The notes below the pieces were generated by a model that was not told the origin of the DNA, did no database searches, and saw only the letters and a program-made list of their open reading frames with translations. This document shows, one piece after another, positions 1,527 through 57,282 of a stretch of DNA of 64,000 bases. The stretch is taken from NCBI GenBank assembly GCA_964412775.1, contig CAYPPX010000001.1:65122-129121 (forward strand), given 5' to 3'. How positions within the stretch are numbered: position 1 is the stretch's first letter; every line of letters begins with the position of its first letter. The position numbers were made by a program, and so were the translations under genes. Origin of the DNA: an uncultured Pseudomonadales bacterium. Its GTDB lineage: Bacteria; Patescibacteriota; Microgenomatia; UBA1400; PJMF01.

Positions 1527-2546
1527 TTGCTCCAAAAACAGTATTATAGAAGTGTGTCAGATCTTTCTGCCCAACCAGCTAGTAGGATGGCTAGTCGTTT
1601 TGTTGCTAAACAAAACTCGGCTATTGGTTCATTAATTAGAAAAGGGATGACTACTCAAGTAGTTAAAGCAACCAACCTAAATGATCAGCCAGCTACCACT
1701 CAAACTAAAATTCCAAATCAAGTTGTGAGCTCTGTCTCAACTCAAACTACTTCACCCTCAGTTCAGGTGGATGATTTTAAAACCAGTCTTGATGGTTTAT
1801 CAAGTTTGGTAGATCAATCTAAGCCAATTGGTAAGACAGCTGAGGATGTTGATTTAGATTCATTGGTTGGTATTGGTTCAACTCCACAACCTCAGCTTCA
1901 GTCTAGCTCAACCGTCTCAACTCAGCCAACTGATGATGATTTTAAACCCAGTTCAGATCCTTTAACTGATTTTGAAAAAATTATTCAAGACTCAACCCAG
2001 TCCTTGGAAGAAAAGACTCCAGAACAAAGCCAAGAACAAAAATATGGTGATCTAGATATCTTGGATCAGGTAATTAGTGAAGTTGAAGCTGGTGTGGTAG
2101 ACCAAGTTATTCCTCAAGTTGTTGTTCAAACTACTAGTACTTTGAATCCTCAACATCCAGTAAAATCTGCTGGCAGTAAAGAATCAGCTGGTAATATATC
2201 TTTAGACCAAGTAGCGATTGACGCAGCTCGCGGAGCTCAACAAGTCGAAACAGAGCCAACTCCAGAAATTCCTCCTGAAGTAGAGAGTTATTTACAAAAA
2301 GTTGAACAACATACCAACACAGCTCCACCAGAAATCGTGATTGCAGACGGTTCTAATACTCAACCCAACAACCACAACTACCCAGCTCAGCCAGTAGTAG
2401 TTTTACCAATTACTCCAGAGATTGAAAAACAAGGGGCTAATAAAAGTCCCAAGTTTAGTGTTCGTTGGTTAGTAGAATGGAGTAGAAAAATTATGAAAAT
2501 GTTTTCTGGTAAAGTAATTTACCGATTACCAGAGGAGGTCAAATAA
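1527..2546 (+). CDS. low-complexity S/T/Q/P-rich hypothetical protein
   Basis: 339-aa ORF, compositionally biased (Q,S,T,P,V), stop overlaps next ATG (ATGA) suggesting translational coupling; start uncertain. Confidence 0.35.
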   Translation: MLQKQYYRSVSDLSAQPASRMASRFVAKQNSAIGSLIRKGMTTQVVKATNLNDQPATTQTKIPNQVVSSVSTQTTSPSVQVDDFKTSLDGLSSLVDQSKPIGKTAEDVDLDSLVGIGSTPQPQLQSSSTVSTQPTDDDFKPSSDPLTDFEKIIQDSTQSLEEKTPEQSQEQKYGDLDILDQVISEVEAGVVDQVIPQVVVQTTSTLNPQHPVKSAGSKESAGNISLDQVAIDAARGAQQVETEPTPEIPPEVESYLQKVEQHTNTAPPEIVIADGSNTQPNNHNYPAQPVVVLPITPEIEKQGANKSPKFSVRWLVEWSRKIMKMFSGKVIYRLPEEVK

Positions 2547-4989: not shown

Positions 4990-6201
4990 ATGTTGAATTT
5001 ATTTAGTAAAAAATCCATTTCTGAACAAAACATTACTGTTTATTACCTGATGCAGTTTTGTCATTCTTTGATTTTTTCTATTCCAATTTGGATTGTTTTT
5101 TATCGTCGAGTAATAACCATTGAAGAAATTTCTTTTTTGGTTGGCTTTCAATATTTTATTCAAATTATTGCTGAGTTACCAACGGGGGCTTTTGCTGATA
5201 TTTTAGGTAAAAAAGTCTCGATTATTATTGGTTTTTTGTTTTTTGCTGCCAGCTCCTTGTTATTTCCTTTTGCTCAAGGGTTTACTCACTATTTAGTTTT
5301 GGCTGCTTTTATGGGTTTGGCTGATTCTTTTTTATCTGGATCAGTTGATGCTTTGCTTTATGACTCACTCAAACAAGATGGTCGTGAGACTGAGTTTGCT
5401 GCGGTTTTAGCTAAACAAAGTATTTTTTACCAACTTGGTTTAGTGACCAGTACTGCCTTGGGTGGTCTGATTTATAAGTGGCATATTTTTGCGCCATTTT
5501 TTATTGAAGGGAGCTTTTTTTTACTCGGTGGTTTTTTTGCTTCTCTATTGAGAGAACCAAAAGTTGATTCAGAAATTTTTACCATTAGGAACTATTTAAG
5601 GCAAATTAAACATGGTGCTAAAGAAGCTTTTAAAAACAGTTTTTTAAAAAAGCTATCTTGGTTTTATATTATGGTGGGAGCAATTACTTGGTCAGCAGCC
5701 CTTTATTTTAATAGTTCACTCATGGTTGATTTGGGATTTTCAGATGAAGTTAGAGGTTTTTTACTTGGTTTAATGCGGTTGTTTAACATTGTTTTTTTGA
5801 CTAACTTACTCAAAAACAAAAAACTTTTTACTGAACGCAACTCAATTATTTTTTTTCCAGTCTTAATGATTGTTGCATTATTACCTGGAATTTATCTCCA
5901 AAGTTGGTGGGCGCTACCTTTTGTGGCAGGTTCAATGGCGGCTTCTACAGCTCGTTGGATTGTTTTGGGTAGAATGACTAATGACCACTTTTCTTCGAAA
6001 TACCGTTCAACAGCAATTTCAACTTTAAGCATGGTAATTGGTATTTTTTATACAATGTTTACGATTATTTCTGGTCCAGTGATTAAGTTGGGTACCACTA
6101 GGCTGATGTATACCATTTTGGGTTTAGTGACAGTGGTAGTTGTAGTTCCTTTAGCCAAGTCATTATTACTAGATGTAGATAAAAACTCTAAAGCAAATTA
6201 A
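4990..6201 (+). CDS. MFS-type transporter
   Basis: about 12 predicted TM segments, 403 aa, MFS-like loop between TM2-3 (GAFADILGKK). Confidence 0.55.
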   Translation: MLNLFSKKSISEQNITVYYLMQFCHSLIFSIPIWIVFYRRVITIEEISFLVGFQYFIQIIAELPTGAFADILGKKVSIIIGFLFFAASSLLFPFAQGFTHYLVLAAFMGLADSFLSGSVDALLYDSLKQDGRETEFAAVLAKQSIFYQLGLVTSTALGGLIYKWHIFAPFFIEGSFFLLGGFFASLLREPKVDSEIFTIRNYLRQIKHGAKEAFKNSFLKKLSWFYIMVGAITWSAALYFNSSLMVDLGFSDEVRGFLLGLMRLFNIVFLTNLLKNKKLFTERNSIIFFPVLMIVALLPGIYLQSWWALPFVAGSMAASTARWIVLGRMTNDHFSSKYRSTAISTLSMVIGIFYTMFTIISGPVIKLGTTRLMYTILGLVTVVVVVPLAKSLLLDVDKNSKAN

Positions 6202-6244: not shown

Positions 6245-6787
6245 ATGGAAAAGACTAAGATAAGACATGGAGTTATTGGCGTTTTAACCCACCAAGATCA
6301 AGTGGTTTTTCTTGGTTTGCCCAGAGAGGATTCACTCCCCAAAGAAGCTGGAGGAAAAGGTAAGCAAGAAAGAGTTAAAGGTGAACAATTCTGGACTTTA
6401 CTAACTACTGGAATGTTGGGTTTCGTTAGTGGTGGTGTAAAAACATCGGCTGACTTAGAACAAATGCCAATTGAGGCTAGAAATGAAATTCTTTTAAAAT
6501 CTTTAACTAGAGAAGCCTTAGAAGAGTTTGATTTGGGTGTTGGCTTGGATAAAGCTGTTGTTAAAAGAGATGGCATAATTGAGCAGTTAAGATATGATGA
6601 ACAAATAACTTTTTTATTATGGGTAGTAAGTAGAGTAGTGATTCAAGAAAACCAACTTTTAAAGCTACGAGAAAAAACTGAAGTAGTTTTAGTCAAGGAA
6701 ACTAAATTAGCTGACTTTTTTGCAACTGAAAAAAATAGAATTAGGCCAGCTGCTCAACAAGCTTTAATTACAGCATATAACTTATGA
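6245..6787 (+). CDS. hypothetical protein
   Basis: 180-aa ORF, 4-nt overlap (ATGA) with downstream IPK gene suggests co-transcription. Confidence 0.35.
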   Translation: MEKTKIRHGVIGVLTHQDQVVFLGLPREDSLPKEAGGKGKQERVKGEQFWTLLTTGMLGFVSGGVKTSADLEQMPIEARNEILLKSLTREALEEFDLGVGLDKAVVKRDGIIEQLRYDEQITFLLWVVSRVVIQENQLLKLREKTEVVLVKETKLADFFATEKNRIRPAAQQALITAYNL

Positions 6788-7599
6788 AAAAATTTAATAA
6801 AAAACAACCAATTACTTTAGTCAAACTGGGTGGTTCTATTATCACCAACAAAAAAGAGTTTATGTCTCTCAAGAAAGAGGCAATCAATGATTTGGTTAAG
6901 CAGATTAAGTTGGTTATTAGTAGTTTTCCCAACGAGCATTTGATAGTTGGTCATGGTCAAGGTAGTTATGCTCACTTGCCAGCTAGTAAATATAGAACCA
7001 TGGAAGGTTTTGTTAACCAAGATAGTACTTATGGAATGGCTGTAGTTCAAGATATGGCTGCTAGATTAAATCGAGAAATAGTTGGGGCTTTTATTGAACA
7101 AAATATTCCAGCAGTATCATTTTTAATGAGTAACTCTTTAATTACCGAAAAACAAAAAGCTAGTCAGGACTTTTTTATTCTTTTAGAAAAATATTTAGAA
7201 AAAGGTCTATTTCCAATTACTTGTGGTGATGTTATTTTGGATGAAGTGATGGGGTGCACCATCTGGTCAACTGAAAAAATTCTAACTTTTTTTACCGAAC
7301 AGTTAACAGCGCATGGTTATCAAGTTGAAAGGCTAATTCATATTACTGAAGTTGGTGGTTTCCTTGATGATCAAAATCAAATTATTAAATACATTAATAA
7401 AACTAATTGGCCAAGTTTAAGTAGGCATTTAACAGCAACCAAAGGCGTTGATGTAACAGGTGGAATGGATTTAAAAGTAACAGAATCACTTGCTTTAGCT
7501 AGTAACTTTGGTCTTAAAACATATATTATGTCTGGTAAAAACAATAACTTATATAATTTTTTTGCTAAAAAAGACTGGGTGGGTACAGAAATTAGTTAG
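6784..7599 (+). CDS. isopentenyl phosphate kinase (amino-acid kinase superfamily)
   Basis: LVKLGGSIIT N-terminal motif, GHGQGSYAH, IPAVSF, CGDVILDE, DVTGGMD, GTEI C-terminus; these align with archaeal IPK motifs. Confidence 0.75.
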   Translation: MKKFNKKQPITLVKLGGSIITNKKEFMSLKKEAINDLVKQIKLVISSFPNEHLIVGHGQGSYAHLPASKYRTMEGFVNQDSTYGMAVVQDMAARLNREIVGAFIEQNIPAVSFLMSNSLITEKQKASQDFFILLEKYLEKGLFPITCGDVILDEVMGCTIWSTEKILTFFTEQLTAHGYQVERLIHITEVGGFLDDQNQIIKYINKTNWPSLSRHLTATKGVDVTGGMDLKVTESLALASNFGLKTYIMSGKNNNLYNFFAKKDWVGTEIS

Positions 7600-7960
7600 A
7601 GTTTTCTGGAGTGGGCGTTTGGCTAATTTCGTAGCTTTCCACTACTTGTTTACAATAAATGTATTGACCATATTCGATAGCTTTTTCATGAACTGGTTGT
7701 GAAGTATCTTCTTGGATAGTATTTTTGAAGGCATCTTGGGCAAAATTACCTAGCTCTTTGGCTCTAGTTGAAAAAGTTTCTAGTTGTTCTCCTGAGCTAC
7801 CTTGAAAGTTGTTAAAACTAGGAACTTTATTGGTAGCTTGATCGATTGTTTCTTTGGGGATTGCTGGCAAGTTGGTTGGTAGTAGATTATTGTAGCTAGA
7901 GTAAACATATCCACCGGCTAATCCTAGCAATAACAGAGCTATAATCAATTTTGTTCTCAT
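7592..7960 (-). CDS. small secreted hypothetical protein
   Basis: N-terminal signal peptide (MRTKLIIALLLLGLAGG), 122 aa. Confidence 0.4.
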   Translation of the reverse strand: MRTKLIIALLLLGLAGGYVYSSYNNLLPTNLPAIPKETIDQATNKVPSFNNFQGSSGEQLETFSTRAKELGNFAQDAFKNTIQEDTSQPVHEKAIEYGQYIYCKQVVESYEISQTPTPENSN

Positions 7961-8023
7961 CTTATAGTCCTAGTGTGGCAAAGTTAAAGGAAAAAGTAAA
8001 GATTTGGTAGAATATATTTTTAT

Positions 8024-9253
8024 ATGATAAAAGAACTTCAGAAAGTAGAGCCGACCCCAAATGAACTATTGGCAGAAAAATTAGAAAAAATAAGCCAAGA
8101 TCCTTTGTTTTGGTTTCTTAAAAAAGAGGTGGTTGAGAATAGCCCTTTTTGGAGACTTTTAACTTATCGTTTGCATGAAGCCCAAAATTCAGTTAATAGT
8201 CGTTTCATTTTTCATAGTAATAAAGTAAAAGCTGAAAATTCTGGATTTGTTTCCAAGCTTGATTTACTAATTGAGACAAGAGGTGGTAAAGAGGGCAAGC
8301 TTAATGAGGATGCCATTATGATTGAAAATCTTGGTGATGGTCGAGCTGTTTTTGCTGTATTCGATGGGGCTTCTAGTCAGGCACCAATCAAGGCTTTAGA
8401 GTCTCATGGTATTTCTGGTGCTTTTTATGTTTCTCATTTAGCTGCTTTTGGTTTTCCGACTAGTGATATCTTCCAAGAACTAAGTCAAAGAGATATTGTT
8501 ACAGCTGGTGAATTTACTAGGGCTTTAAACAAGTGGTTATATGAACAAATGAGTCAAGTTGATGGCGTTGATTATAATGATGTTTTAACTATTCCTGGTA
8601 TGGCCGCGACTATTGTAGTAGTTGATTTTAATAAACAGAATTTGTCAGTAGCAAGTGTCGCAGATACAGTTGGTATTGCTCACCATACAGATGGTGAATG
8701 GGATTATTTTACTGGTAACCTTAACGAAAGATTTGATCTTGAAACAATGTCTTTAGTTAAGCAAATTGCAGTAAGAGAAGGTATTTCAATTAAAGAAGCA
8801 GCTGGTTATCCAGAAGTTAAGGCTCAATTAGCTACTTCATTTAGAAAGAAAATTAATGCCCCAGAAGATTTACAAGGTTTAATTGGTTGTGGAATTTTAA
8901 ATGGTATGCCCGAATTAGAACACCCAGGTTTAATTGAAGAGTATTCTTTGGCTAGTTTGACTGATTTACACCAGTTGGTTTTGTGTAGTGATGGTGCTTT
9001 GACCCCATTTAAGGGTGAGGAAGTGGCTGATTTTTTGGTTAAGTTATTAGCTTTTAAAGAAAAGCACCTAGCTCAGCCAGGAATGATGAACATTGTAAAA
9101 AACTTATTAGATGAAGACCCAGACTTTTCATTGTTTGAACGTTTAAAGCACTCAGATGATGCTAGCTTACTAGTTATTGGGTTTAATCAACTTCGGGCTA
9201 TAGCATTTGAGAGATTTAGTTTGGTTAGGACCTTTTTTCAGAGAAAAAAGTAA
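8024..9253 (+). CDS. PP2C/SpoIIE-like phosphatase-domain protein (divergent)
   Basis: 'AVFAVFDGASS' and 'LVLCSDGALTPF' resemble PP2C motifs 2 and 8, but the His-Gly-Gly of motif 2 is replaced by Ala-Ser-Ser. Confidence 0.4.
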   Translation: MIKELQKVEPTPNELLAEKLEKISQDPLFWFLKKEVVENSPFWRLLTYRLHEAQNSVNSRFIFHSNKVKAENSGFVSKLDLLIETRGGKEGKLNEDAIMIENLGDGRAVFAVFDGASSQAPIKALESHGISGAFYVSHLAAFGFPTSDIFQELSQRDIVTAGEFTRALNKWLYEQMSQVDGVDYNDVLTIPGMAATIVVVDFNKQNLSVASVADTVGIAHHTDGEWDYFTGNLNERFDLETMSLVKQIAVREGISIKEAAGYPEVKAQLATSFRKKINAPEDLQGLIGCGILNGMPELEHPGLIEEYSLASLTDLHQLVLCSDGALTPFKGEEVADFLVKLLAFKEKHLAQPGMMNIVKNLLDEDPDFSLFERLKHSDDASLLVIGFNQLRAIAFERFSLVRTFFQRKK

Positions 9254-9255
9254 AG

Positions 9256-10464
9256 TTACTCGTATCTCAAAGCTTCAATCGGAGAGAGGCTAGCTGCTCT
9301 TTTGGCTGGAGCAACTCCAAAAATTACTCCAACAGCAGCCGAAACACTAAAGGCTAACATAATGGCACCTAAAGTAATTTTGGCTGGGAAAAAGGCTTGA
9401 ATAGCCAGTGAACCAAGATAAGCAATTGCTAAACCAATCAAACCACCCATAACCGAGAGTAGAGCAGATTCAATTAAAAACTGGACCAAAATTTGTTTTG
9501 GGGTAGCGCCTAGAGCTTTTCTTAGACCAATTTCTCTAGTTCTTTCGGTAACAGAAACTAACATGATATTCATAATCCCAATACCACCAACCACTAGGGA
9601 AATAGCAGCAATGCCCCCAAGACCCACAGTTAGCATGCCCAAAATACCATTAATTGTATCTAGAATTTCAGCTTGATCAACCACACTAAACTCATCTTCT
9701 TCTAGTCTTTTACCCAAAGTATTTTCGATAGCTTTAATTGATTCCTTCATCCTATCTTTGTCATTAATCTTGACCATAATTTCCACAATTTGTTCTGTAT
9801 CATAAATTCTAAAACTAGTTTCCAGTGGTATATATACATAAGTATCAAAACTTGGACCACCTCCACCCCCACCTTGTTTTTCAGCTGTGCCTACGACTTT
9901 AAAGGTTTGGGTACCAAGTTTGACCTTTTTACCAATAGGATCAACTTGACCAAATAACTCATCAGCAATTTGCCAACCCAAAACAGCCACTCTTTCTGCT
10001 CCTTGGTCTTCAGCTTTATTGAAAAACCGTCCTTTTTCTATCCCAATGATGAATTCTTCATATTGGTAGTTTGTACCAATTACTGAGACGGTTTTTTCTT
10101 CCTCTCTGAAAGAAATTTTGTCTGATTGAGTATTCATTGGTATAGCAAATTTGACAAATTCTCTCAGTCTATTAATTTCGTTGACATCTTCTAGTTTTAG
10201 TTTATTGTTAATAAAAGCATTTCTTTGTGATTCGGCGTTAAAGCCACCACCCTCAGCAAAGGGATTTCCTGGAACGATAAAAACATTGTTGGAACCAAGT
10301 GCTTCAAACTGGTCAGTAATGTAGGCTTGGAGACCAGTCCCGATGGAAGTTAGCAAGACTACAGAAGACACCCCAATAATGACACCCAACATGGTTAAGA
10401 ATGACCTACCTTTGTTGACCATGATGGCTTTAATGGCCACCAGGAAAGTATTTTTTAGTTTCAT
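9256..10464 (-). CDS. ABC transporter permease, MacB/FtsX-type
   Basis: N-terminal TM, large extracytoplasmic domain, C-terminal 3-TM FtsX-like domain; G-rich loop (GGGGGG). Confidence 0.75.
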   Translation of the reverse strand: MKLKNTFLVAIKAIMVNKGRSFLTMLGVIIGVSSVVLLTSIGTGLQAYITDQFEALGSNNVFIVPGNPFAEGGGFNAESQRNAFINNKLKLEDVNEINRLREFVKFAIPMNTQSDKISFREEEKTVSVIGTNYQYEEFIIGIEKGRFFNKAEDQGAERVAVLGWQIADELFGQVDPIGKKVKLGTQTFKVVGTAEKQGGGGGGPSFDTYVYIPLETSFRIYDTEQIVEIMVKINDKDRMKESIKAIENTLGKRLEEDEFSVVDQAEILDTINGILGMLTVGLGGIAAISLVVGGIGIMNIMLVSVTERTREIGLRKALGATPKQILVQFLIESALLSVMGGLIGLAIAYLGSLAIQAFFPAKITLGAIMLAFSVSAAVGVIFGVAPAKRAASLSPIEALRYE

Positions 10465-11159
10465 TTCTTTATTTTTCCATCATGAATTTCAATACTAGAA
10501 TGAGCAATTTTAGCCACATCATGTTCGTGGGTGACCATAATGATAGTTTTACCTTCTTTGTTGAGTTCTTTGAGAATTTTTTCAACTTCTTGTCCAGATT
10601 TAGAGTCTAAGTTGCCAGTTGGTTCATCAGCAAAAATAATTGAGGGGCTATTAATCAGTGCCCTAGCGATGGCAACCCTTTGTTGTTGACCACCAGATAA
10701 TTGTGCCGGACTGTTGTCCAATCTATTACCCAGTCCCACTCTTTCTAACATTACTTTGGCCATTTCCAGCCGAGTTTTTTCATCAATCCCAGCGTAAACT
10801 AGAGGTAAAGCAACATTTTCGAGAGCAGATGTTTTAGCTAGAAGGTTGAAGTTTTGAAAAATAAAGCCGATCTCTTTGTTTCTTAAATGGGCTCGTTCAA
10901 CTTCATCATAAGTAGTGGTATCTTTACCATTGATGAAAATTTTACCAGAGCTTGGGGCAGCTAAAATACTAGCGACCTGTAGAAAGGTTGATTTTCCAGA
11001 ACCAGATGGGCCCATGACTGATAGAAAGTCACCAGCTCGGACCTTTAAAGAAATACCATCTAAAGCTCTAATTTTTTGAGTACCAAGCGAATATTCTTTG
11101 ACAACATCAATCAATTCTAAAACTACTGGTTTATTATTTTTACTTGCTTTTTGAGACAT
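10461..11159 (-). CDS. ABC transporter ATP-binding protein (MacB/LolD-like)
   Basis: Walker A GPSGSGKST, signature LSGGQQQRVAIARAL, Walker B IIFADEPTGNLD; 4-nt overlap with the downstream permease gene. Confidence 0.9.
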   Translation of the reverse strand: MSQKASKNNKPVVLELIDVVKEYSLGTQKIRALDGISLKVRAGDFLSVMGPSGSGKSTFLQVASILAAPSSGKIFINGKDTTTYDEVERAHLRNKEIGFIFQNFNLLAKTSALENVALPLVYAGIDEKTRLEMAKVMLERVGLGNRLDNSPAQLSGGQQQRVAIARALINSPSIIFADEPTGNLDSKSGQEVEKILKELNKEGKTIIMVTHEHDVAKIAHSSIEIHDGKIKK

Positions 11160-11161
11160 CT

Positions 11162-12208
11162 TTATTCTGGAATAACGATTTCATCACTTGTAGATAAACC
11201 ACTAACTACCTCAATTTTTTCGTCTGTTTCTAATCCAACCTCAATTTCTCTTTCTTCGGTGGTTTTGTTGTCAATTTTGATATCAACATAGGTTTTACCA
11301 TCTCTTTCTTTGATTGCGACCAAAGGAACTGTCATCACATTCTGTTTGGTTTCTAGCTCTATTTTGACATCACCATTCATGCCTAAGCGGTATTTAGTTA
11401 AATCGTTTGATGAGATAGGAAACTCAACGACAAAGGCTGTACCACTAGCTGATGGAACACTTTGAAAAGAAATATAGTTGACAGCACTAGTGAAATTTTC
11501 TTCTGGGTAAGCATCTAGTTCGATTGTGGCTGATTGATTTTGAGTAACCAACGAAATATCTGATTCGTCAACTAAAGCTTTGAAAGTAAGTGTGGCTGGG
11601 TTAACAATCTCAAAACTATCTGTAGCTAAGAGTTGAACTCCAGTCACCGGAGTTGGACTTTTAATCAAGATACCATCAAATGGTGAAGTCATCACTCCAT
11701 TTGAGATAGAAATGGCAGCTAGTTCCACATCAAGAACTGAGTTAGTAAGGTCAAATTGTTCTTTGTCGATGGTTCTTTTTAAAGATTCATCAACGGTTGT
11801 GCCATCACCAATATCGTCCTGTCTTTGGTCCCAATCAAGTCTTTCCTTAGAGTAAGCATTGAGGTACTTTTCTTGAGTTTTTAGGGCAGTCCTTTGATCA
11901 ACTGTGGCGATGGTTTGCCATTTTTTGACAGTATCACCTTCTTTGGCTCCCAGGTAAACCACTTTACCACCAGCCACAAAGCGCAGGCTAACTTTTTCTT
12001 TAGCATCAATAACACCAGAAACATCAAGAGTTTTAGTAATGGTTTCAATTGTGGGGTGAGCGAAAACAAGAACTGGTTGGTTAGCTTTACTTTTAATGAT
12101 GTTGTTTAAAATTAATCCCAGAATCACAACGACAGTAATAATTAACCACTTTCTTTTTTGCCAGATGCTTTTTAGATTGCTAAATAAACCTTTAATTTTA
12201 TTTGCCAT
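11162..12208 (-). CDS. HlyD/MacA-family periplasmic adaptor (efflux membrane-fusion protein)
   Basis: N-terminal TM anchor, coiled-coil region, beta-barrel-like C-terminal region, 348 aa; operon with MacB-like ATPase/permease. Confidence 0.6.
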   Translation of the reverse strand: MANKIKGLFSNLKSIWQKRKWLIITVVVILGLILNNIIKSKANQPVLVFAHPTIETITKTLDVSGVIDAKEKVSLRFVAGGKVVYLGAKEGDTVKKWQTIATVDQRTALKTQEKYLNAYSKERLDWDQRQDDIGDGTTVDESLKRTIDKEQFDLTNSVLDVELAAISISNGVMTSPFDGILIKSPTPVTGVQLLATDSFEIVNPATLTFKALVDESDISLVTQNQSATIELDAYPEENFTSAVNYISFQSVPSASGTAFVVEFPISSNDLTKYRLGMNGDVKIELETKQNVMTVPLVAIKERDGKTYVDIKIDNKTTEEREIEVGLETDEKIEVVSGLSTSDEIVIPE

Positions 12209-12250
12209 AAGTCTTTCTCAGATTATAGTTGCTCAATTATATAACTTTAG

Positions 12251-12323
12251 TGCGTGCGCTAGGACTTGAACCTAGAACCACCAAGGTATAAGCTTGGCGC
12301 TCTGCCAATTGAGCTACGCACGC
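12251..12323 (-). tRNA. tRNA-Ile (anticodon UAU)
   Basis: Hand-folded 73-nt cloverleaf on minus strand: acceptor GCGTGCG/CGCACGC, D-stem GCTC/GAGC, anticodon stem CCAAG/CTTGG with loop CTTATAC, T-arm CTAGG-TTCAAGT-CCTAG; no encoded CCA. Confidence 0.8.
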
Positions 12324-12412
12324 TTTATGATGTGCTAATTATAAAACAAAACAGATTAAACTATTTGAGTAGTTTGATTTAGTTATTTGTAGTCAGCTGG
12401 TGGAAATGTTCG

Positions 12413-12454
12413 TGTGAGACACTTGCCCACGGGGCAGAGGGGTCGGGTTGTTTT
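12413..12454. repeat. GC-rich ~40-nt conserved intergenic motif, copy 2
   Basis: gtgagacacttgcccacggggcagaggggtcgggttgttttc; lies between surface-protein gene stop and tRNA-Ile. Confidence 0.45.
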
Positions 12455-12456
12455 CT

Positions 12457-13689
12457 TTACAAGAAGAGTAACAGTAATGCACCAATACCAAGGGCTCCAA
12501 GACCAACTTGTAAGTATTGTAGCCAATTTTCTGGACCACTCTTTGGTAGCTCTGAAGGAAGAGTTGGTTCAGTTGAAGTATATCTGTTAGTGATATTAAC
12601 AGTAGCCGTACTTGAAGACGATGAGCTAGATGAGGAACTACTGCTACTACTGCCTTCAGTTGGAACGGCTGTTGGGGCATTACAACAGGCTGCTTTGCCA
12701 GGGTTAGCGATACAAGCATCCTCATAGGCAGGCATTGAACAATAATTGTCACCGTCATTGGCAGTGACACAGATTAAGCCATCATTACAATCATTATCAT
12801 CGTCACAAGGGGTGTAGCCACATTCTTCTGGTAAAGGAGTTGGAGTAATAGTTGGGGTAGGTTCATTACAACAGGCCTCAACACCAGGGTTAGCGATACA
12901 AGCATCCTCATATTCAGGTAGAGAACAGTATTTATCACCATCATCAGCAGTAACACAGATCAAACCCTCATCACAGCTGGCATCAGTAGTACAAGGAGTG
13001 TAACCACATTCACTAATCATCGGAGTTGGACTTGGGGTAACAGTAATGGTTGGAGTAATAGTTGGGGTTACACCAGGAGGTAGTGTTGGAGTTGGACTTG
13101 GTACTCTGGTTGGTGTTGGAGTAGCAGTTGGTGTAATAGTCGTAGTTGGAGGCTCGGTTGGTTCAGGTGGTTCGGTGGGTCTTGGTGGTCTAGTAGGTCC
13201 ACCACCAGGACAACAGCCATCTTCATCTGGCCCATAAATATCAGAACAACACACATAGCCTTCAACACAACAAGTTGTTCCTTGGCCTTGATAGTTAGTA
13301 CAGTAAGCTCTGCCTTGATTTTCACATTGGGTTTCTAATTCTGGTTCGCATTTTGTTCCATTACATAAATCTCCACCTAAACAGTGACACCACTCTGGGT
13401 GTCCACCACAAGCATTAGGGTCATTAATGTTACACTCAAAGTTACTATATTGACCGGTATCTGCCTGTTGACGTAAATCTTGGTTGAGTTTGGTCATGTA
13501 AAGACCAGCAATACCTCCAAGAACTAGGAGTAAAAGTGATAAAAAAGCAAAAACAAGTTTTGTTTTTTTACTATTTGTATTTTTTAGTTTTTTTTCTTTG
13601 AAACTATTACCATCACCATTAACTATAGTCTTATCTAAAGAGGGGATATCACCAATTGGCTGGTTGATTTTAGTTAACAGGTCGGACAT
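12457..13689 (-). CDS. cysteine-rich cell-surface protein, paralog 1 (signal anchor, Cys modules, PT linker, poly-Ser, C-terminal LPKSG sorting-like signal)
   Basis: ORF 12457-13701 starts at a TTG; the first ATG is at 13689. N-terminal TM followed by conserved [17 protein letters not shown], two ECGYTPC...CVTADDGDKYCSLPEYEDACIANPG..CC modules, 16 consecutive Ser, and C-terminus ...[30 protein letters not shown]. Confidence 0.6.
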   Translation of the reverse strand: MSDLLTKINQPIGDIPSLDKTIVNGDGNSFKEKKLKNTNSKKTKLVFAFLSLLLLVLGGIAGLYMTKLNQDLRQQADTGQYSNFECNINDPNACGGHPEWCHCLGGDLCNGTKCEPELETQCENQGRAYCTNYQGQGTTCCVEGYVCCSDIYGPDEDGCCPGGGPTRPPRPTEPPEPTEPPTTTITPTATPTPTRVPSPTPTLPPGVTPTITPTITVTPSPTPMISECGYTPCTTDASCDEGLICVTADDGDKYCSLPEYEDACIANPGVEACCNEPTPTITPTPLPEECGYTPCDDDNDCNDGLICVTANDGDNYCSMPAYEDACIANPGKAACCNAPTAVPTEGSSSSSSSSSSSSSSTATVNITNRYTSTEPTLPSELPKSGPENWLQYLQVGLGALGIGALLLLFL

Positions 13690-13747
13690 GTATTTATACA
13701 ATACATAGAATAGCTTGTTTTTTATAGATTCGTCAATCTGCTGATTA

Positions 13748-15082
13748 TTATAAAAATAAGATTAATAATGCCCCAATACCTAATGCTCCAAGACCAATTT
13801 GTAAGTAGTTTAGCCAGTCGCTTGGTCCAGATTGAGGTAATTTTTCTGGATAGGTTGGTTGCTCACCTTTTGTAGTGGTTTTAGTGGTTGTTTTAGTTGG
13901 AGTTGCTGTTGTTGTTTTAGTAGCCACTTTGGTTGGAGAAGAGGTCGTATTGTTGGTAACAGTTCTGCCTCCACCTGACACAACAGTATTATTTTCAATG
14001 TTTATAACGACTGATGAAGATGAACTACTGCTAGAACTGCTGCTAGATGAGCTACCTCCACTTGGTGGGTTGGTTGGAGCAATACAACAAACAGCTTTAC
14101 CAGGGTTAGCGATACAAGCTTCTTCATATTCTGGCATCGAACAATAGTTATCACCGTTATTAGCAGTGACACAAATTAGGTCATCGCTACAATCGTTATC
14201 ATCGTCACAAGGAGTGTAACCACATTCTTCAGGTGCTGGAGTAGCGGTTGGAGTTGGAGTGGTAGTGGCTGTTGGAGCGATACAACAAGATTCGGTGCTT
14301 GGGTTATCTATACAAGCATCTTCATATTCTGGTATCGAACAATAGTTATCACCGTCATTAGCAGTGACACAAATTAGGTCATCGCTACAATCGTTATCAT
14401 CGTCACAAGGAGTGTAACCACACTCACTTGGCTCTGGGGTAGCAGTTGGAGCGTTACAACATTTTTCTACTCCTGGTTCGATAGCACATTCTTCAGCATA
14501 TTCTGGCATCGAACAATAGTTATCACCGTTATCAGCAGTGACACAGATTAAATCTTCACCACAGTCATTATCATCATCACATGGGGTGTAGCCACACTCA
14601 CTTGGCTCTGGGGTAGCAGTTGGAGCGTTACAACATTTTTCTGTCCCTGGTTCAGCGATACAAGCTTCTTCATATTCAGGTAAAGAACAATAGCTATTTC
14701 CATTTTCAGCGGTAATACAACTGAGGCCCTCAGCACAGTCGTTGGCCGTTTCACAAGGGCCAAAGCCACAATTTGCTTTGAGAGTTGGACCTGGAACAGT
14801 AAAGGAAATATGGCAACTATCTTGATTTATAAAGGCTGCAGGTTGTGAGTCTGGAGCATTTGGAGCTTTAATTGAATCATCAATAAATTGTTTTTGTGAA
14901 ATTAATACGCCAGCTAATCCAAGAATAAAAAAAGATAATAATCCAAAGGTAGTTAGGATAATATTTTTAATATTCTTCTTTGGTTTTTCTGGTTTGTTAA
15001 ATGAAGGCACGGAATCATTCAGCTTTACTTCAAAAGCTGTTGGATCTTGTTTGACTGGTAGGTTCTTTTTTAAATCAAGCAT
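13748..15082 (-). CDS. cysteine-rich cell-surface protein, paralog 2 (four tandem 8-Cys modules, C-terminal LPQSG signal)
   Basis: N-terminal TM; 4 repeats of SECGYTPCDDDNDC..DLICVTA.NGDNYCS.PEYEEACI..PG...CC.APTAT; poly-Ser (16); TTK-rich linker; C-terminus [32 protein letters not shown]; 9 nt downstream of paralog 3 (operon). Confidence 0.65.
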   Translation of the reverse strand: MLDLKKNLPVKQDPTAFEVKLNDSVPSFNKPEKPKKNIKNIILTTFGLLSFFILGLAGVLISQKQFIDDSIKAPNAPDSQPAAFINQDSCHISFTVPGPTLKANCGFGPCETANDCAEGLSCITAENGNSYCSLPEYEEACIAEPGTEKCCNAPTATPEPSECGYTPCDDDNDCGEDLICVTADNGDNYCSMPEYAEECAIEPGVEKCCNAPTATPEPSECGYTPCDDDNDCSDDLICVTANDGDNYCSIPEYEDACIDNPSTESCCIAPTATTTPTPTATPAPEECGYTPCDDDNDCSDDLICVTANNGDNYCSMPEYEEACIANPGKAVCCIAPTNPPSGGSSSSSSSSSSSSSSVVINIENNTVVSGGGRTVTNNTTSSPTKVATKTTTATPTKTTTKTTTKGEQPTYPEKLPQSGPSDWLNYLQIGLGALGIGALLILFL

Positions 15083-15091
15083 TTTTACTTT

Positions 15092-16255
15092 TTAGTCTTC
15101 ACAAGCTGTTGGTGTTAGGCTCTCCCAATCACAAACAGTATCTCCTGCTTCATCGATGCTACAAACAGAACATTGAGCCATGTAATCACCATACATACTA
15201 ATATTGTAATTAATTCCGTTTTCACCCTCTTCATTAATAAATTCTAGAGGTTCTAAGTGGTTATGACTGCCACATGGTTCGTAGATTCTAAAGGCGTAGA
15301 AGTATCCATCTGGTAAGGAACTTTGATTACTACTACAAACAAATCTAACAGTACTTTGTCCAGCAATAAGTTGATCATCGTCATTAGCTGACATTAGACT
15401 GCTTTGACCACTAGTCACGTTGTACATAGCAATATCTCTACATTGTGGTCCAATCATTGTTGTAGGGGTTGGAGTAGGCTCATTACAACAGGCCTCAACA
15501 CCAGGGTTAGCGATACAAGCATCCTCATATTCAGGTAGAGAACAGTATTTGTCACCATCATTAGCAGTGACACAGATTAAACCATCGTTACAACTGGCAT
15601 CAGTAGTACAAGGAGTGTAACCACACTCATTAATTACTGGAGTTGGACTTGGTGTAGGAGTGCTAGTTGGTGTAGGGGTAGCAGTAGGGGTAATGGTTGT
15701 AGTTGGTGGGTCAGTTGGATCTGGAGGATCATCTGGAGGGTCGTTTGGAGGGCAGTCAGTACAGACAACTCCGGCATCTTCACACAAAGCATCACAGCTA
15801 TCTGCAACACCAATTACCCAGTAGCCCTGGTCATTTCCTGGACCACATTTGCAACGGATCATACCTCCAGTACAACCTTCTACAACTGTAGTATTGGGAT
15901 TGTCACACCAATCACCACCCAAAGTATCTTCTGTACATAAACCGTCATCGTCATAACCACAAACAATAATGCCGTCACCATCAGGATCATCACAGTTTTC
16001 TAGCACACAACGGCCATTCACTAGATGGTAGTTTGGTTCGCAACTATATTGACCGGTATCTGCTTGTTGACGTAAGTCTTGGTTGAGTTTGGTCATAAAC
16101 AAGCCAGTGGTAACACCAATTACTAAAAAGAGTAAGGAGGCGATACCGATTAATAACTTATTTTTTGAAGATTGAGCGACAGCAAATTGAACCGTTTTTT
16201 TGCTTGGTTCTCTAGCAGAACTAAAACTAGTATTTTGGGGATCACTAGATTCCAT
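15092..16255 (-). CDS. cysteine-rich secreted/surface protein, paralog 3 (no C-terminal sorting signal)
   Basis: N-terminal TM + [18 protein letters not shown] (nucleotide sequence nearly identical to paralog 1), Cys-rich N domain, PT linker, one ECGYTPC module, distinct Cys-containing C-terminal domain ending ...TPTACED. Confidence 0.6.
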   Translation of the reverse strand: MESSDPQNTSFSSAREPSKKTVQFAVAQSSKNKLLIGIASLLFLVIGVTTGLFMTKLNQDLRQQADTGQYSCEPNYHLVNGRCVLENCDDPDGDGIIVCGYDDDGLCTEDTLGGDWCDNPNTTVVEGCTGGMIRCKCGPGNDQGYWVIGVADSCDALCEDAGVVCTDCPPNDPPDDPPDPTDPPTTTITPTATPTPTSTPTPSPTPVINECGYTPCTTDASCNDGLICVTANDGDKYCSLPEYEDACIANPGVEACCNEPTPTPTTMIGPQCRDIAMYNVTSGQSSLMSANDDDQLIAGQSTVRFVCSSNQSSLPDGYFYAFRIYEPCGSHNHLEPLEFINEEGENGINYNISMYGDYMAQCSVCSIDEAGDTVCDWESLTPTACED

Positions 16256-16365: not shown

Positions 16366-17214
16366 TTATAAGAAGAGTAGTAGCAGTGCTCCAGCTCCTA
16401 AAGCACCCAAACCAATCTGTAAGTATTTAAGCCAGTCTTCTGGTCCAGTTTCTGGTAATTGTTCTGGTAAATCTGGTTGAGTAGTGTAACTAGTAGTACC
16501 AGTGCTGGTGCTAGTATTGATGTTTACAGTAGCACTACTATTACTTTCTGAGTAACTACTTGATGAACTGCCATCATTGTTGTTTGATTGGGTTGGTTCT
16601 GCTGTTGGTTCGGTTGTGGGCTCACTTCCACCAGTAGTTGGTTCGGTTGTCGGTTCACCGGTTGGTTCGGTTGTGGGCTCACCAGTTGGTTCAGTTGTAG
16701 GTTCACCAGTTGGTTCAGTTGTAGGTTCTGCTGTTGGTTCGGTTGTCGGTTCACCGGTTGGTTCGGTTGTGGGAGCTACAGTTGGAGTTGGATCAGATGA
16801 TCCAGCATCACAAGTACACTTAGCTTTACCATCGTTTCCAATTTGGTTTGGTAGTGATCTACATTCTCCATCACCACCACATGAATCACCTGGATCTTTG
16901 CCTTGACATTGAGAAGCAGAAGCATCAGAACAGTCGCCTCCAGTAGTGTATGCTCCTGTATCAGCCTGTTGACGTAAATCTTGGTTAATCTTCATCAAGT
17001 AAAGACTAATTCCACCACCTATTACTAATAGTAGTAAGAGAATCCCAGCAATTAGATAGCGTTTATTACTTTTTCTAGTGGGTTTTTTTGAAAATCTTTT
17101 TAGAGTCGGTTCTTTGTTTTCTGCTTTGTCGCTATTTAATTGAGTTGGATCAGCTGGTAAGCTAGGTCCAGACACATCGTTGCTATAACTAGGATTTTGG
17201 ATGGTATTAATCAT
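16366..17214 (-). CDS. cysteine-rich cell-surface protein, paralog 4 (EPTT/GEPT tandem repeats, C-terminal LPETG signal)
   Basis: N-terminal TM + [17 protein letters not shown], 12-Cys domain, about 9 tandem TEPTGEPT repeats (12/24-nt DNA periodicity), S-rich tract, C-terminus [32 protein letters not shown]. Confidence 0.6.
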
Positions 17215-45626: not shown

Positions 45627-45700
45627 GGGCCCTTAGCTCAGTTGGCTAGAGCGCTACATTTGCAATGTAGAGGCCAAGGGTTCGAGCCCCTTAGGGTCCA
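45627..45700 (+). tRNA. tRNA-Ala (anticodon UGC)
   Basis: Hand-folded: acceptor GGGCCCT/AGGGTCC (one G-U), D-arm GCTC-AGTTGGCTA-GAGC, anticodon arm CTACA-TTTGCAA-TGTAG, T-arm AAGGG-TTCGAGC-CCCTT. Confidence 0.85.
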
Positions 45701-45931
45701 CCGAGCAACTTAACATTAAGAAGTGGGTGAAAAACTTGGGCTTTTTGTTATTCGTTCATGGGTTGTTGGAAAAAACTAACGACTCGGAGCGAACAACAAG
45801 AAGCACAAACTTCTTGATTAGTTTGTTCTTTAAAAAGTGAAGAGATATGTCATCTAATAGTAAAATTCGTCGAGAATTTTATAACAAAATTTAATTAATT
45901 TAAATTTAAAAATGCAAATTTCGCTAATTAT

Positions 45932-48845
<2,914 letters not shown>

Positions 48846-48952
48846 AATAACAATTTACATTTTTATGAATTCGCGACAATATGCTGGCAGATGACAATTT
48901 CTCTTCACCTTTTAGGGAACATACCCTAAAATTAACAAAACAGAGCGTTTTA

Positions 48953-49070
48953 TTCTGGTCTCTAGAGCGAGGTGGTACCAACTCTTCCCATCCCGAACAG
49001 AGTCTTGAAACGCCTCAGCGCTGACAATAGTATCCCCTCGTTGGGACGCGAAGATAGGTCGAGGCCAGAA
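48953..49070 (+). rRNA. rrf: 5S ribosomal RNA
   Basis: 'CCCATCCCGAAC', 'GAAACGCC' and terminal helix TTCTGGTC.../...GGCCAGAA; flanked by an extended perfect processing stem (agcgttttatt / aataaaacgct). Confidence 0.8.
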
Positions 49071-54749: not shown

Positions 54750-54906
54750 AGATCGAGAATTATACAGTGTATATCTAGATTTATCAATGGATGTTTCTCA
54801 AGAAGTATTTTGAGTGAATTCTGTTGTTATTTTATTGAGTTTTAATAAGAAAGATAATAATAGGACCCTTTTATTTAAGGAGAGAAACTTTATAATCAAG
54901 GTTAGT

Positions 54907-57270: not shown

Positions 57271-57282
57271 TTTTGGGAAAAA

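What the first reader, a model, noticed from the sequence alone, without database searches (positions are those of the whole stretch)
12457..12560. C-terminal LPxTG/LPxSG-like motif followed by a hydrophobic helix but no basic tail
Canonical sortase signals are LPxTG + hydrophobic segment + Lys/Arg-rich tail. Here the three signals (LPKSG, LPQSG, LPETG) are followed by the highly conserved 'P[ES][DN]WL.YLQ[IV]GLGALG[IA]GALL[LI]LFL' and the protein then ends. The conservation of the residues after the motif (W-L-x-Y-L-Q-x-G-L-G-A-L-G) is much stronger than needed for a mere membrane helix. This suggests recognition by a specific sorting enzyme, such as a variant sortase class or another C-terminal processing system, or a GxxxG-type helix-helix interaction. 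The same signal occurs at 13748-13850 and 16366-16460.
Basis: seen in the sequence. Interest (0 to 1): 0.6.

Follow-up and report, generated by a model that had tools for sequence, protein, structure and literature searches.

The report
Uncharged LPxTG-type sorting tail in CPR bacteria
Three surface-protein genes of an uncultivated ultra-small (CPR/Microgenomates) bacterium end in a strongly conserved 38-residue signal that resembles the Gram-positive LPXTG wall-anchoring signal but always lacks its textbook positively charged end; it is shared by over a hundred protein clusters in this lineage and has no dedicated model in the libraries searched.

Summary
Three minus-strand genes (12457-13701, 13748-15082, 16366-17214) end in LPx[ST]GP[ES][DN]WLxYLQ[IV]GLGALG[IA]GALL[LI]LFL, with the stop exactly 30 residues after the L of LPxxG. 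This is neither truncation nor recent duplication. Synonymous sites between the copies are saturated, while dN is 0.14-0.23.

An exhaustive profile scan found 167 protein clusters carrying the tail at their very C-terminus. None of 129 distinct tails has a charged residue in its last 15 positions. Named members are Candidatus Pacebacteria and Woesebacteria (Microgenomates, CPR).

The standard LPXTG anchor model (TIGR01167) aligns only to its positions 1-29 of 34, missing the basic end. It scores just below threshold on the window proteins and above threshold on one of 53 relatives' tails scanned. No dedicated model exists in NCBIfam or Pfam.

Best reading: a lineage-specific sortase sorting signal without the cationic tail. 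No sortase lies in the window or in about 830 kb of held DNA (the window plus 67 related loci). The literature reports sortase as near-ubiquitous in Microgenomates, so the enzyme link is inferred.

In 27 of 33 evaluable loci the tail genes sit just upstream of tRNA-Ile(UAU) and a MacAB-like transporter. This may be only a conserved backbone.

Verdict: a new variant of a known kind, of moderate interest.

The parts
12457..13701 (-). Tail-bearing surface protein 1 (414 aa from a TTG start). It has an N-terminal TM (13498-13557), NQDLRQQA (13462-13485), two Cys-rich ECGYTPC modules, a 14-Ser run (12610-12651) and the C-terminal tail.
12460..12573 (-). 38-residue sorting module of protein 1: [43 protein letters not shown] is at 12535-12549 and the stop at 12457-12459.
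13748..15082 (-). Tail-bearing surface protein 2 (444 aa). It has an N-terminal TM (14903-14962), an APNAPDS-type post-TM motif (14846-14866), four Cys-rich modules, a 14-Ser run (14012-14053) and the tail.
13751..13864 (-). 38-residue sorting module of protein 2: [43 protein letters not shown] is at 13826-13840.
16366..17214 (-). Tail-bearing surface protein 4 (282 aa). It has an N-terminal TM (16999-17058), NQDLRQQA (16963-16986), TEPTGEPT repeats (Pfam PT repeat) and the tail.
16369..16482 (-). 38-residue sorting module of protein 4: [43 protein letters not shown] is at 16444-16458. This copy gives the best TIGR01167 score in the window (14.8 bits against a cut-off of 15.9).
15092..16255 (-). 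Paralogue 3 (387 aa). It has the same N-terminal TM plus NQDLRQQA and one Cys-rich module, but no C-terminal tail. This shows that the N-terminal leader and the tail are separable.
12250..12323 (-). tRNA-Ile (anticodon TAT), the conserved boundary between the tail-gene cluster and the MacAB-like genes. It is present at this position in all 16 related loci tested.
7592..12208 (-). Conserved downstream neighbours; whether they belong to the system is uncertain. They are a MacA-like adaptor (11162-12208), an ABC ATPase (10461-11159), a MacB/FtsX-type permease (9256-10464) and a small TM protein (7592-7960). The adaptor gene lies within 5 kb downstream of a tail gene in 27 of 33 distinct evaluable loci.

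Best explanation
The tail is a lineage-specific (Microgenomates/CPR) version of the LPXTG cell-wall sorting signal.

Proposed mechanism:
1. The precursor is exported through Sec by its N-terminal hydrophobic leader (inferred).
2. The 22-residue C-terminal helix (W-L-x-[YW]-L-x-x-G-L-x-x-L-G-x-G-A-x-L-L-L-L-L) stops transfer and holds the precursor in the membrane (inferred).
3. This places the invariant LPx[T/S/A]-G just outside the bilayer, flanked by the acidic P-E-D and an interfacial Trp (shown by sequence).
4. The housekeeping sortase of the organism cuts between T/S and G and transfers the protein to lipid II/peptidoglycan (inferred).

The textbook cationic tail is absent throughout the family. 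Retention must therefore rest on the very hydrophobic LLLLFL end, on the acidic residues outside the membrane, and/or on packing of the glycine face against another helix such as the sortase anchor (speculative).

Shown: the module, its fixed distance to the stop, purifying selection, lineage-wide spread, partial match to the LPXTG model, and peptidoglycan genes in the same window. Inferred: cleavage, the enzyme, and wall attachment.
For: - Motif and position. LPx[TSA]G with an invariant G lies 30 residues before the stop in 22 of 22 distinct tails from the window and loci L001-L015, and in the large majority of 129 distinct tails from 167 protein clusters.
- Model match. TIGR01167 LPXTG_anchor is the only consistent family hit. 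The window proteins score 9.8, 11.6 and 14.8 bits against a cut-off of 15.9, aligned to model positions 1-28 or 1-29 of 34. Of 53 isolated relatives' tails, 34 match at E<=1; the one whose table was returned scores 19.7 bits, above the cut-off. JGI labels two fragments 'LPXTG-motif cell wall-anchored protein'.
- Selection. dN/dS is 0.05-0.18 in the tail, with saturated dS.
- Helix. Mean Kyte-Doolittle hydropathy of the last 19 residues is about 2.0.
- Acceptor pathway. MurJ and a class A PBP are encoded in the window.
- Enzyme availability. Sortase is reported as 'near ubiquitous in Microgenomates' and strongly CPR-enriched (1020 CPR genomes against 12 non-CPR; about 231 aa with one TM; 93% of members hit PF04203) in PMC6744442. 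A complete Microgenomates genome encodes a sortase (PMC7143001).
- No competing substrate class. A scan of about 830 kb of held DNA found no canonical LPXTG signal with a basic tail, so this tail is the only candidate substrate class seen.
- Passenger regions (Cys-rich modules, PT and Ser linkers) look like surface proteins.
Against: - A defining part of the sortase signal, the basic tail, is absent in every member. In S. aureus the charged tail is part of the sorting signal (PMC3297441); that deleting it causes loss of anchoring is my recollection of Schneewind et al. 1992/1993, not checked here.
- No sortase was found in the 64-kb window or in about 830 kb of held DNA (the window plus 67 related loci). 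Co-occurrence in the same genome is therefore not shown.
- Two of the three window copies have Ser rather than Thr at position 4, and they score below the curated cut-off.
- The N-terminal leaders are atypical. They have a long cytoplasmic extension, and the residues before the putative cleavage point (R-Q-Q-A) do not fit a signal-peptidase I site well. Processing at the N-terminus is therefore unclear.
Confidence: 0.6

Rival explanations
1. Permanent C-terminal membrane anchor. The helix simply tethers the protein in the cytoplasmic membrane, possibly oligomerising through its glycine-zipper face. The Pro-rich QPxLPxxLPxTGP segment is a conserved stalk or hinge that is never cleaved.
For: - There is no basic tail and no sortase nearby.
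- The helix is more conserved than a generic TM, with a small-residue face G-x-G-x-x-G-x-G.
- CPR proteins with functional C-terminal TM anchors have been proposed elsewhere: PamC, PamD and PamR in bioRxiv 10.64898/2026.03.03.709456.
Against: - A stalk would not need an invariant Gly and near-invariant L-P at fixed spacing. The pattern is exactly the sortase recognition pentapeptide and is picked up by the LPXTG model.
- Sortase is near-ubiquitous in this class, and no other substrate type was seen.
Confidence: 0.17
2. The tail is handled by the neighbouring MacAB-like (type VII ABC, LolCDE/MacB-family) transporter. An uncharged helix could be pulled out of the outer leaflet, either to release the protein or to clear the helix remnant left by sortase. 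Tail and transporter would then form one system.
For: - A MacA-like adaptor, ABC ATPase and MacB/FtsX permease lie within 5 kb downstream (median 426 bp) and on the same strand as a tail gene in 27 of 33 distinct evaluable loci. Adaptor identity to the window is only 46-73%, so the arrangement is conserved across deep divergence.
- Relatives of MacB (LolCDE) extract lipid-anchored proteins from membranes (established knowledge). A helix without cytoplasmic charges would be easier to extract (inference).
Against: - A tRNA-Ile(UAU) gene separates the tail genes from the transporter in all 16 loci tested. In the Woesebacteria-type loci it is on the opposite strand, so the genes are not one operon.
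- The block S1/PGK, tail genes, tRNA-Ile, MacAB, VirB4-like ATPase, Lgt looks like a conserved chromosomal backbone with a variable surface-protein slot.
- Six loci carry tail genes far from any such transporter.
- No direct evidence links the two.
Confidence: 0.12
3. The tail is a signal for a non-sortase C-terminal sorting enzyme of the exosortase/archaeosortase, rhombosortase or CPBP (myxosortase) type.
For: The general architecture fits Haft-type sorting domains: a lineage-specific C-terminal motif plus helix on several paralogues with unrelated passengers.
Against: - There is no PEP, PGF, GlyGly or Cys signature.
- No NCBIfam sorting-domain model other than LPXTG-type ones matches.
- No exosortase, rhomboid or CPBP gene was found among the window ORFs scanned.
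- Those systems also carry basic tails.
Confidence: 0.03
4. Artefact: the basic tail was lost through assembly or annotation truncation, or the similarity reflects recent gene conversion among paralogues.
For: None found.
Against: - The stop falls at the identical position in 85 tails from 67 loci, and the 22 distinct tails in the window plus loci L001-L015 use three different stop codons between them.
- 129 distinct database tails all lack charges in their last 15 residues.
- dS is saturated between the window copies.
Confidence: 0

Closest known systems
LPXTG cell-wall sorting signal of sortase substrates (TIGR01167 / PF00746; for example S. aureus protein A)
   Same: Both have an LPx(T/S/A)G pentapeptide about 30 residues from the C-terminus, followed by a Gly/Ala/Leu-rich membrane helix, on secreted modular surface proteins. 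The LPXTG model aligns over positions 1-29 of 34.
   Different: - No Lys/Arg cluster after the helix in any member; the protein ends in LLLLFL or LLLLL.
- The residues after Gly (P-E/A-D-W-x-x-[YW]-L) and before the motif (QPxLPxx) are conserved as part of a fixed 38-residue module.
- Ser is common at position 4.
- The window copies fall below the curated cut-offs.
- The partner sortase was not identified.
Dedicated C-terminal sorting domains described by Haft and colleagues (PEP-CTERM/exosortase, PGF-CTERM/archaeosortase, GlyGly-CTERM/rhombosortase, MYXO-CTERM)
   Same: A short, positionally fixed, lineage-restricted C-terminal domain is shared by several paralogues per genome whose passenger regions are unrelated. 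It could be recognised by a small HMM.
   Different: The signature motif is different. Those domains end in basic residues, and each has an identified partner enzyme family. Here there is no model hit and no such enzyme.
NF058670 'LPxTATN C-terminal sorting signal domain' and NF053819 EF0750-type LPXTG proteins (NCBIfam)
   Same: Weak matches from a few family tails: 6 and 7 of 53, with best E-values of 0.055 and 0.02. These are also variant LPXTG-like signals.
   Different: The matches are far below significance and the motifs differ. I did not examine these families further.
MacAB / LolCDE-type (type VII) ABC transporters with a membrane-fusion adaptor
   Same: The conserved neighbours match RND_mfp (108 bits against a cut-off of 94.9), MacB ATPase and MacB/FtsX permease models.
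   Different: This is only a neighbour. No known MacB-type system handles LPXTG-type proteins, and a tRNA gene separates it from the tail genes.

Membership tests
LPXTG sortase sorting signal (TIGR01167 / PF00746) | LPXTG-like pentapeptide close to the C-terminus | tested here: met
   LPKSG, LPQSG and LPETG lie 30 residues before the stop. Across the family, L and P are at least 90% conserved, G is invariant, and position 4 is T, S or A.
LPXTG sortase sorting signal (TIGR01167 / PF00746) | Hydrophobic membrane-spanning segment after the motif | tested here: met
   The last 19 residues have a mean Kyte-Doolittle value of 1.9-2.1 and no charged residue.
LPXTG sortase sorting signal (TIGR01167 / PF00746) | Cluster of positively charged residues at the extreme C-terminus | tested here: not met
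   None of 129 distinct database tails and none of 22 distinct tails in the window plus loci L001-L015 has K, R or H in the last 15 residues. The proteins end in ...LLLLFL or ...LLLLL.
LPXTG sortase sorting signal (TIGR01167 / PF00746) | Score at or above the curated model cut-off | tested here: inconclusive
   The window proteins score 9.8, 11.6 and 14.8 bits against 15.9 for TIGR01167, and 10.1 against 20 for PF00746. Of 53 isolated tails of relatives, 34 match at E<=1; the first scores 19.7 bits, above the cut-off. The alignment always stops at model position 28-29 of 34.
LPXTG sortase sorting signal (TIGR01167 / PF00746) | N-terminal secretion signal | tested here: inconclusive
   All have an N-terminal basic cluster plus a 20-residue hydrophobic segment, but it follows a 30-90 aa extension and is followed by NQDLRQQA or APNAPES motifs rather than a clear AxA site. 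A few family members (P0075, P0087, P0147) have classical short signal peptides.
LPXTG sortase sorting signal (TIGR01167 / PF00746) | A sortase (PF04203) encoded in the same genome | not testable with these tools
   Only 64 kb of the genome is available. No sortase is in the window or in about 830 kb of held DNA, the window plus 67 related loci. The literature reports sortase as near ubiquitous in Microgenomates (PMC6744442).
LPXTG sortase sorting signal (TIGR01167 / PF00746) | Peptidoglycan/lipid II acceptor pathway present | tested here: met
   MurJ (54814-56595; 257 bits) and a class A PBP (61139-63481; Transgly plus Transpeptidase) are in the window.
LPXTG sortase sorting signal (TIGR01167 / PF00746) | Cleavage between T and G and covalent linkage to the wall | not testable with these tools
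   This needs biochemistry or proteomics.
Exosortase/archaeosortase/rhombosortase-type sorting domains (PEP-CTERM, PGF-CTERM, GlyGly-CTERM, MYXO-CTERM) | Signature motif (PEP, PGF, GG or Cys) before the helix, and a hit to the corresponding NCBIfam model | tested here: not met
   No such motif is in the sequence. At E<=10 on the window proteins and E<=1 on 53 tails, only LPXTG-type sorting-signal models appeared, alongside scattered chance hits to unrelated families.
Exosortase/archaeosortase/rhombosortase-type sorting domains (PEP-CTERM, PGF-CTERM, GlyGly-CTERM, MYXO-CTERM) | Partner enzyme gene (EpsH/exosortase, rhomboid or CPBP) in the genome | tested here: inconclusive
   None was found among the window ORFs scanned. 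The rest of the genome is unavailable.
MacAB-type tripartite ABC transporter (neighbouring genes only) | Membrane-fusion adaptor, MacB-type ATPase, and permease with MacB_PCD/FtsX domains | tested here: met
   TIGR01730 RND_mfp scores 108 bits against 94.9. The MacB model matches both the ATPase (244.6 bits) and the permease (213 bits), but as split genes. Pfam MacB_PCD plus FtsX are found on the orthologues.

The most novel reading that the evidence does not exclude
The uncharged, glycine-faced helix may not be merely a degenerate LPXTG anchor. It could be the handle of a CPR-specific sorting pathway in which the tail, or the remnant left after cleavage at LPxT|G, is recognised and extracted from the membrane by the MacAB/LolCDE-like transporter encoded next to the tail-gene cluster. 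Alternatively it could be docked helix-to-helix to a dedicated sortase subclass. Either would be a protein-sorting route without precedent in cultivated bacteria.
Probability: 0.1. Interest if true: 0.8.

Novelty: new variant of a known kind. Interest (0 to 1): 0.5.

Why it matters
CPR/Patescibacteria are a very large, mostly uncultivated part of bacterial diversity that lives attached to other cells. Their surface proteins are therefore central to their biology, yet they are almost unannotated.

- Annotation. This tail gives a simple sequence handle, a 38-residue HMM, for finding a whole class of Microgenomates surface proteins. Public gene callers currently truncate these genes to 30-aa fragments, replace them with opposite-strand shadow ORFs, or misname them (one homologue is labelled a sigma-70 factor).
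- Mechanism. The tail challenges the textbook three-part definition of the sortase signal. If these proteins are sortase substrates, the cationic tail is dispensable in at least one large lineage. That bears on how precursors are retained for sortase and on rule-based LPXTG predictors that require the basic tail.
- Testability. The conserved post-cleavage peptide and the constant neighbourhood with a MacAB-like pump offer testable leads on how a minimal cell with scavenged lipids handles membrane-embedded sorting remnants.

Tried and rejected
1. Protein-database searches with short tail profiles returned only 3-5 miscalled fragments of 30-59 aa. The word-indexed search does not retrieve long proteins from a 40-aa query, and one attempt failed because the query was too short. 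The exhaustive HMMER scan solved this.
2. An exact look-up of window protein 4 found nothing on record. The window's PBP is on a 6-kb read-assembly contig only, so the source genome could not be extended.
3. The sortase hunt gave nothing. I ran no further search on sortase, because a Firmicutes seed would not surface CPR members.
4. Recent duplication or gene conversion as the cause of conservation was rejected.
5. Assembly truncation was rejected.
6. Operon coupling with the MacAB-like genes was weakened by the intervening tRNA-Ile, which is on the opposite strand in many loci.
7. The 2026 preprint on a new CPR pilus (Pam) was checked and is unrelated; it has no LPXTG or tail. Literature searches combining LPXTG with CPR names found no description of this signal.
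Full report
**What is in the sequence.** The window has 33.6% G+C. Positions 12.4-17.2 kb carry four tandem paralogous genes on the minus strand.
- 12457-13701: ...[30 protein letters not shown]
- 13748-15082: ...[30 protein letters not shown]
- 16366-17214: ...[30 protein letters not shown]

The stop codon follows exactly 30 residues after the L of LPxxG, and no Lys or Arg lies within or after the helix. The fourth paralogue (15092-16255) shares the N-terminal leader and a Cys-rich module but has no tail. The conserved block starts eight residues upstream of the pentapeptide ([QE]PxLPxxLPxxG), so the unit is a 38-residue module.

**Is it more than chance, duplication or truncation?** Yes.
- The three tails differ at 25-27 of 90 nucleotides but at only 6 of 30 residues. 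dS is 1.3-2.9 (saturated) and dN is 0.15-0.23. Elsewhere the proteins are about 50% identical with long indels. The tail is therefore held by purifying selection, not by recent gene conversion.
- A scan of one genome per species (GTDB collection) with patterns from the tail found it in metagenome-assembled genomes labelled Candidatus Pacebacteria, Woesebacteria and 'Patescibacteria group'.
- In the window plus loci L001-L015 I found 24 tails, 22 of them distinct. All are exactly 30 residues from LP to the stop, and they end with TAA, TAG or TGA.
- An exhaustive HMMER scan of 1.84 billion representative proteins with the 38-residue profile gave 167 clusters at E<=0.001 and 22 at E<=1e-10. In nearly all, the match ends at the last residue of the protein.
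- Of 129 distinct tails extracted, none has K, R, H, D or E in the last 15 positions.
- The family consensus is QPxLPxELPx[TS]GP[EA]DWxN[WY]LK[AV]GLxxLGxGAxLLLLL-COOH.
- A metagenome scan added 47 loci. Across all 67 loci there are 85 tails with the same uncharged end.

The missing basic tail is therefore a defining property of the family, not an error.

**Why the family is poorly visible in databases.** In a related 155-kb JGI contig the full gene is a 309-aa ORF. The public gene call is a 30-aa fragment, and a spurious ORF is called elsewhere within the gene. Word-indexed protein searches returned only such fragments. One NCBI homologue is named 'RNA polymerase sigma factor, sigma-70 family'. 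The Thr/Pro/Ser-rich, low-complexity passenger regions evidently mislead gene finders.

**Relation to known sorting signals.** Against NCBIfam, the only consistent hit on all three window proteins is TIGR01167 LPXTG_anchor.
- The scores are 9.8, 11.6 and 14.8 bits (cut-off 15.9), aligned to model positions 1-28 or 1-29 of 34. That is everything except the basic end.
- Pfam Gram_pos_anchor gives 10.1 bits against 20 on protein 4.
- When 53 isolated tails from relatives are scanned, 34 match TIGR01167 at E<=1 (best 7e-5). The first scores 19.7 bits, above the cut-off, again over positions 1-29.
- No PEP-CTERM, PGF-CTERM, GlyGly-CTERM or other non-LPXTG sorting-domain model appears.

The tail is thus a near-standard LPXTG anchor domain that lacks the cationic tail and has extra conserved positions. 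No dedicated model exists in NCBIfam release 20 or Pfam. The textbook definition of the sortase signal includes the positively charged tail (PMC3297441; PMC8225981).

**The enzyme.**
- No sortase is encoded in the window. Pfam scans of 40 ORFs, NCBIfam on 10 more and inspection of the ORFs without hits found none. None of the unannotated ORFs has a plausible Cys/His/Arg arrangement.
- No exosortase, rhomboid or CPBP protease turned up either.
- phmmer with three sortase seeds plus a TLxTC-type regex found nothing in 1405 ORFs from about 830 kb of held DNA, the window plus 67 related loci. The neighbours of tail genes in two other genomic contexts also lack a sortase. Sortase is therefore not encoded next to these genes.
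- Meheust et al. 2019 (PMC6744442) report a sortase family as 'near ubiquitous in Microgenomates'. It is strongly CPR-enriched: 1020 CPR against 12 non-CPR genomes, mean length 231 aa, one TM, and 93% of members hitting PF04203. A closed Microgenomates genome encodes a sortase (PMC7143001).
- The window encodes the acceptor pathway: MurJ and a class A PBP.
- In the about 830 kb held I found no canonical LPXTG signal with a basic tail. This tail family is therefore the only candidate substrate class seen for the lineage's sortase.

On this basis I judge sortase processing the most likely mechanism (about 0.6). Same-genome co-occurrence and cleavage are not shown.

**Genomic context.** In 27 of 33 distinct evaluable loci the tail genes (1-3 per locus, 230-995 aa) lie upstream of a MacA-like membrane-fusion adaptor gene. 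The median distance is 426 bp, the range 140-4189 bp, and the genes are on the same strand.
- Downstream of the adaptor gene come a MacB-type ABC ATPase, a MacB/FtsX permease and a small TM protein. Further on lie a VirB4/coupling-protein-like ATPase, DUF192 and Lgt. Ribosomal protein S1 and often PGK lie on the other side.
- Adaptor identity to the window ranges from 46% to 73%, so the arrangement is old.
- However, a tRNA-Ile(UAU) gene sits between the last tail gene and the adaptor gene in the window and in all 16 loci tested. In the Woesebacteria-type loci it is on the opposite strand.
- Six loci carry tail genes elsewhere.

I therefore read the arrangement as a conserved chromosomal backbone with a variable surface-protein slot. 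Functional coupling to the transporter, such as extraction of an uncharged helix or of the post-cleavage remnant by a LolCDE/MacB-type machine, is an interesting minority hypothesis.

**The proteins themselves.** Passenger regions are modular:
- a Cys-rich unit of about 50-60 residues (ECGYTPC...CC.APT), with four copies in protein 2, two in protein 1 and one in protein 3, and a weak Pfam DX hit;
- PT-type repeats;
- 14-residue Ser runs.

N-termini are also conserved family-wide. They often start MIN[VAT], then have 30-90 Pro-rich residues, a basic cluster and a TM segment. After the TM comes either Q-x-x-Q-D-[ILV]-R-Q-Q-A or ...SQ[RK]Q...PVAPNAPES...; 107 of 132 full-length representatives have one of the two. 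A few members have ordinary short signal peptides instead, and paralogue 3 has the leader without the tail. The two ends are therefore separable signals. The abundance of Cys fits the CPR-enriched disulfide machinery that Meheust et al. discuss together with sortase.

**Verdict.** The tail is a specifically recognised sorting domain, but the evidence places it as a variant of the sortase/LPXTG signal rather than another C-terminal system. The enzyme remains unidentified. I found no description of this tail in the searchable literature and no curated model for it. I classify it as a new variant of a known kind, with moderate interest (0.5). It bends a textbook rule for a very large uncultivated lineage and gives a practical handle on CPR surface proteomes. 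The likely mechanism is nevertheless conventional, and the key link, sortase co-occurrence and cleavage, still has to be shown.

Noticed in passing
window 12250-12323 (-); also L001 8723-8797, L004 12084-12158, L018 4600-4674 and others: A tRNA-Ile with anticodon TAT (UAU) occupies the same position, between the tail-gene cluster and the MacA-like gene, in the window and in all 16 related loci tested. It is on the same strand as the tail genes in Pacebacteria-type loci and on the opposite strand in Woesebacteria-type loci. tRNA-Ile(UAU) is uncommon in bacteria, which normally read AUA with a lysidine-modified CAU tRNA (my knowledge). I did not look for TilS.
   Followed up: partly
window 13462-13485, 16061-16084, 16963-16986 (NQDLRQQA); 14846-14866 (APNAPDS); family representatives P0004-P0151: The tail proteins share conserved N-terminal leaders: a start of MIN[VAT].., a long Pro-rich cytoplasmic stretch, a basic cluster and a TM. 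After the TM comes either QxxQD[ILV]RQQA or SQ[RK]Q..PVAPNAPES. One of the two motifs is present in 107 of 132 full-length representatives. This is possibly a second, N-terminal sorting or processing signal. It also occurs without the tail (gene 15092-16255).
   Followed up: partly
window 12805-13011, 14207-14773, 15608-15628: A repeated Cys-rich module of about 50-60 residues (ECGYTPCDDDNDC..LICVT..G..YCS.PEYE.ACI.NPG...CC.APT) occurs in 4, 2 and 1 copies in proteins 2, 1 and 3. The only hit is a marginal match to the nematode DX module (26.4 bits against 25). The fold is unknown.
   Followed up: no
window 7592-12208 (-) and 2546-4882 (+): A deeply conserved backbone lies next to the tail genes. 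It comprises a MacA-like adaptor, an ABC ATPase, a MacB/FtsX permease, a small 110-128 aa TM protein, a 778-aa VirB4/TrwB-like ATPase (DUF87), DUF192 and Lgt. The ATPase is probably the CPR type IV secretion ATPase described in bioRxiv 10.1101/2025.01.22.634366.
   Followed up: partly
window 45627-49070 (+): tRNA-Ala(TGC), 23S and 5S rRNA are present without a 16S gene upstream in the window; S1 and a 211-aa gene lie there instead. The rRNA genes are therefore unlinked. The same tRNA-Ala/211-aa/S1 arrangement is seen in L001.
   Followed up: no
L001 5682-6611 against the called genes at 5959-6111 and 6519-6611; window shadow ORFs 12393-12770 (-), 13875-14147 (+), 16577-16906 (+): Public gene calls break these low-complexity genes into 30-50 aa fragments or call out-of-frame or opposite-strand shadow ORFs. 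NCBI names homologue KKU18192.1 (P0005) a sigma-70 family sigma factor, which is clearly wrong. The family is therefore under-represented in protein databases.
   Followed up: partly
window 58419-59969 (+), next to PilN/PilO (56665-57903): A 516-aa secreted-looking protein ends in a different C-terminal membrane helix followed by an acidic tail (...ALLVGGLFLMFTGLWSWWLAQEVEAAE). It is another non-canonical C-terminal anchor, located beside type IV pilus assembly genes.
   Followed up: no
window 49147-50088 and 50036-50662 (+): Two overlapping ORFs encode very hydrophobic, Phe/Ile-rich polytopic membrane segments with no family hit. They may be one frameshifted gene for a large membrane glycosyltransferase-like protein.
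   Followed up: no
window 17291-43169: A cell-envelope polysaccharide cluster of about 26 kb lies between the tail genes and S1. It includes Wzm/Wzt-type ABC exporter genes, several GT2/GT4 glycosyltransferases, two Wzy_C/O-antigen-ligase-like proteins, WecG/TagA, a carbamoyltransferase and an epimerase. Related loci such as L001 lack this cluster at that position, so it is an insertion or variable region.
   Followed up: no
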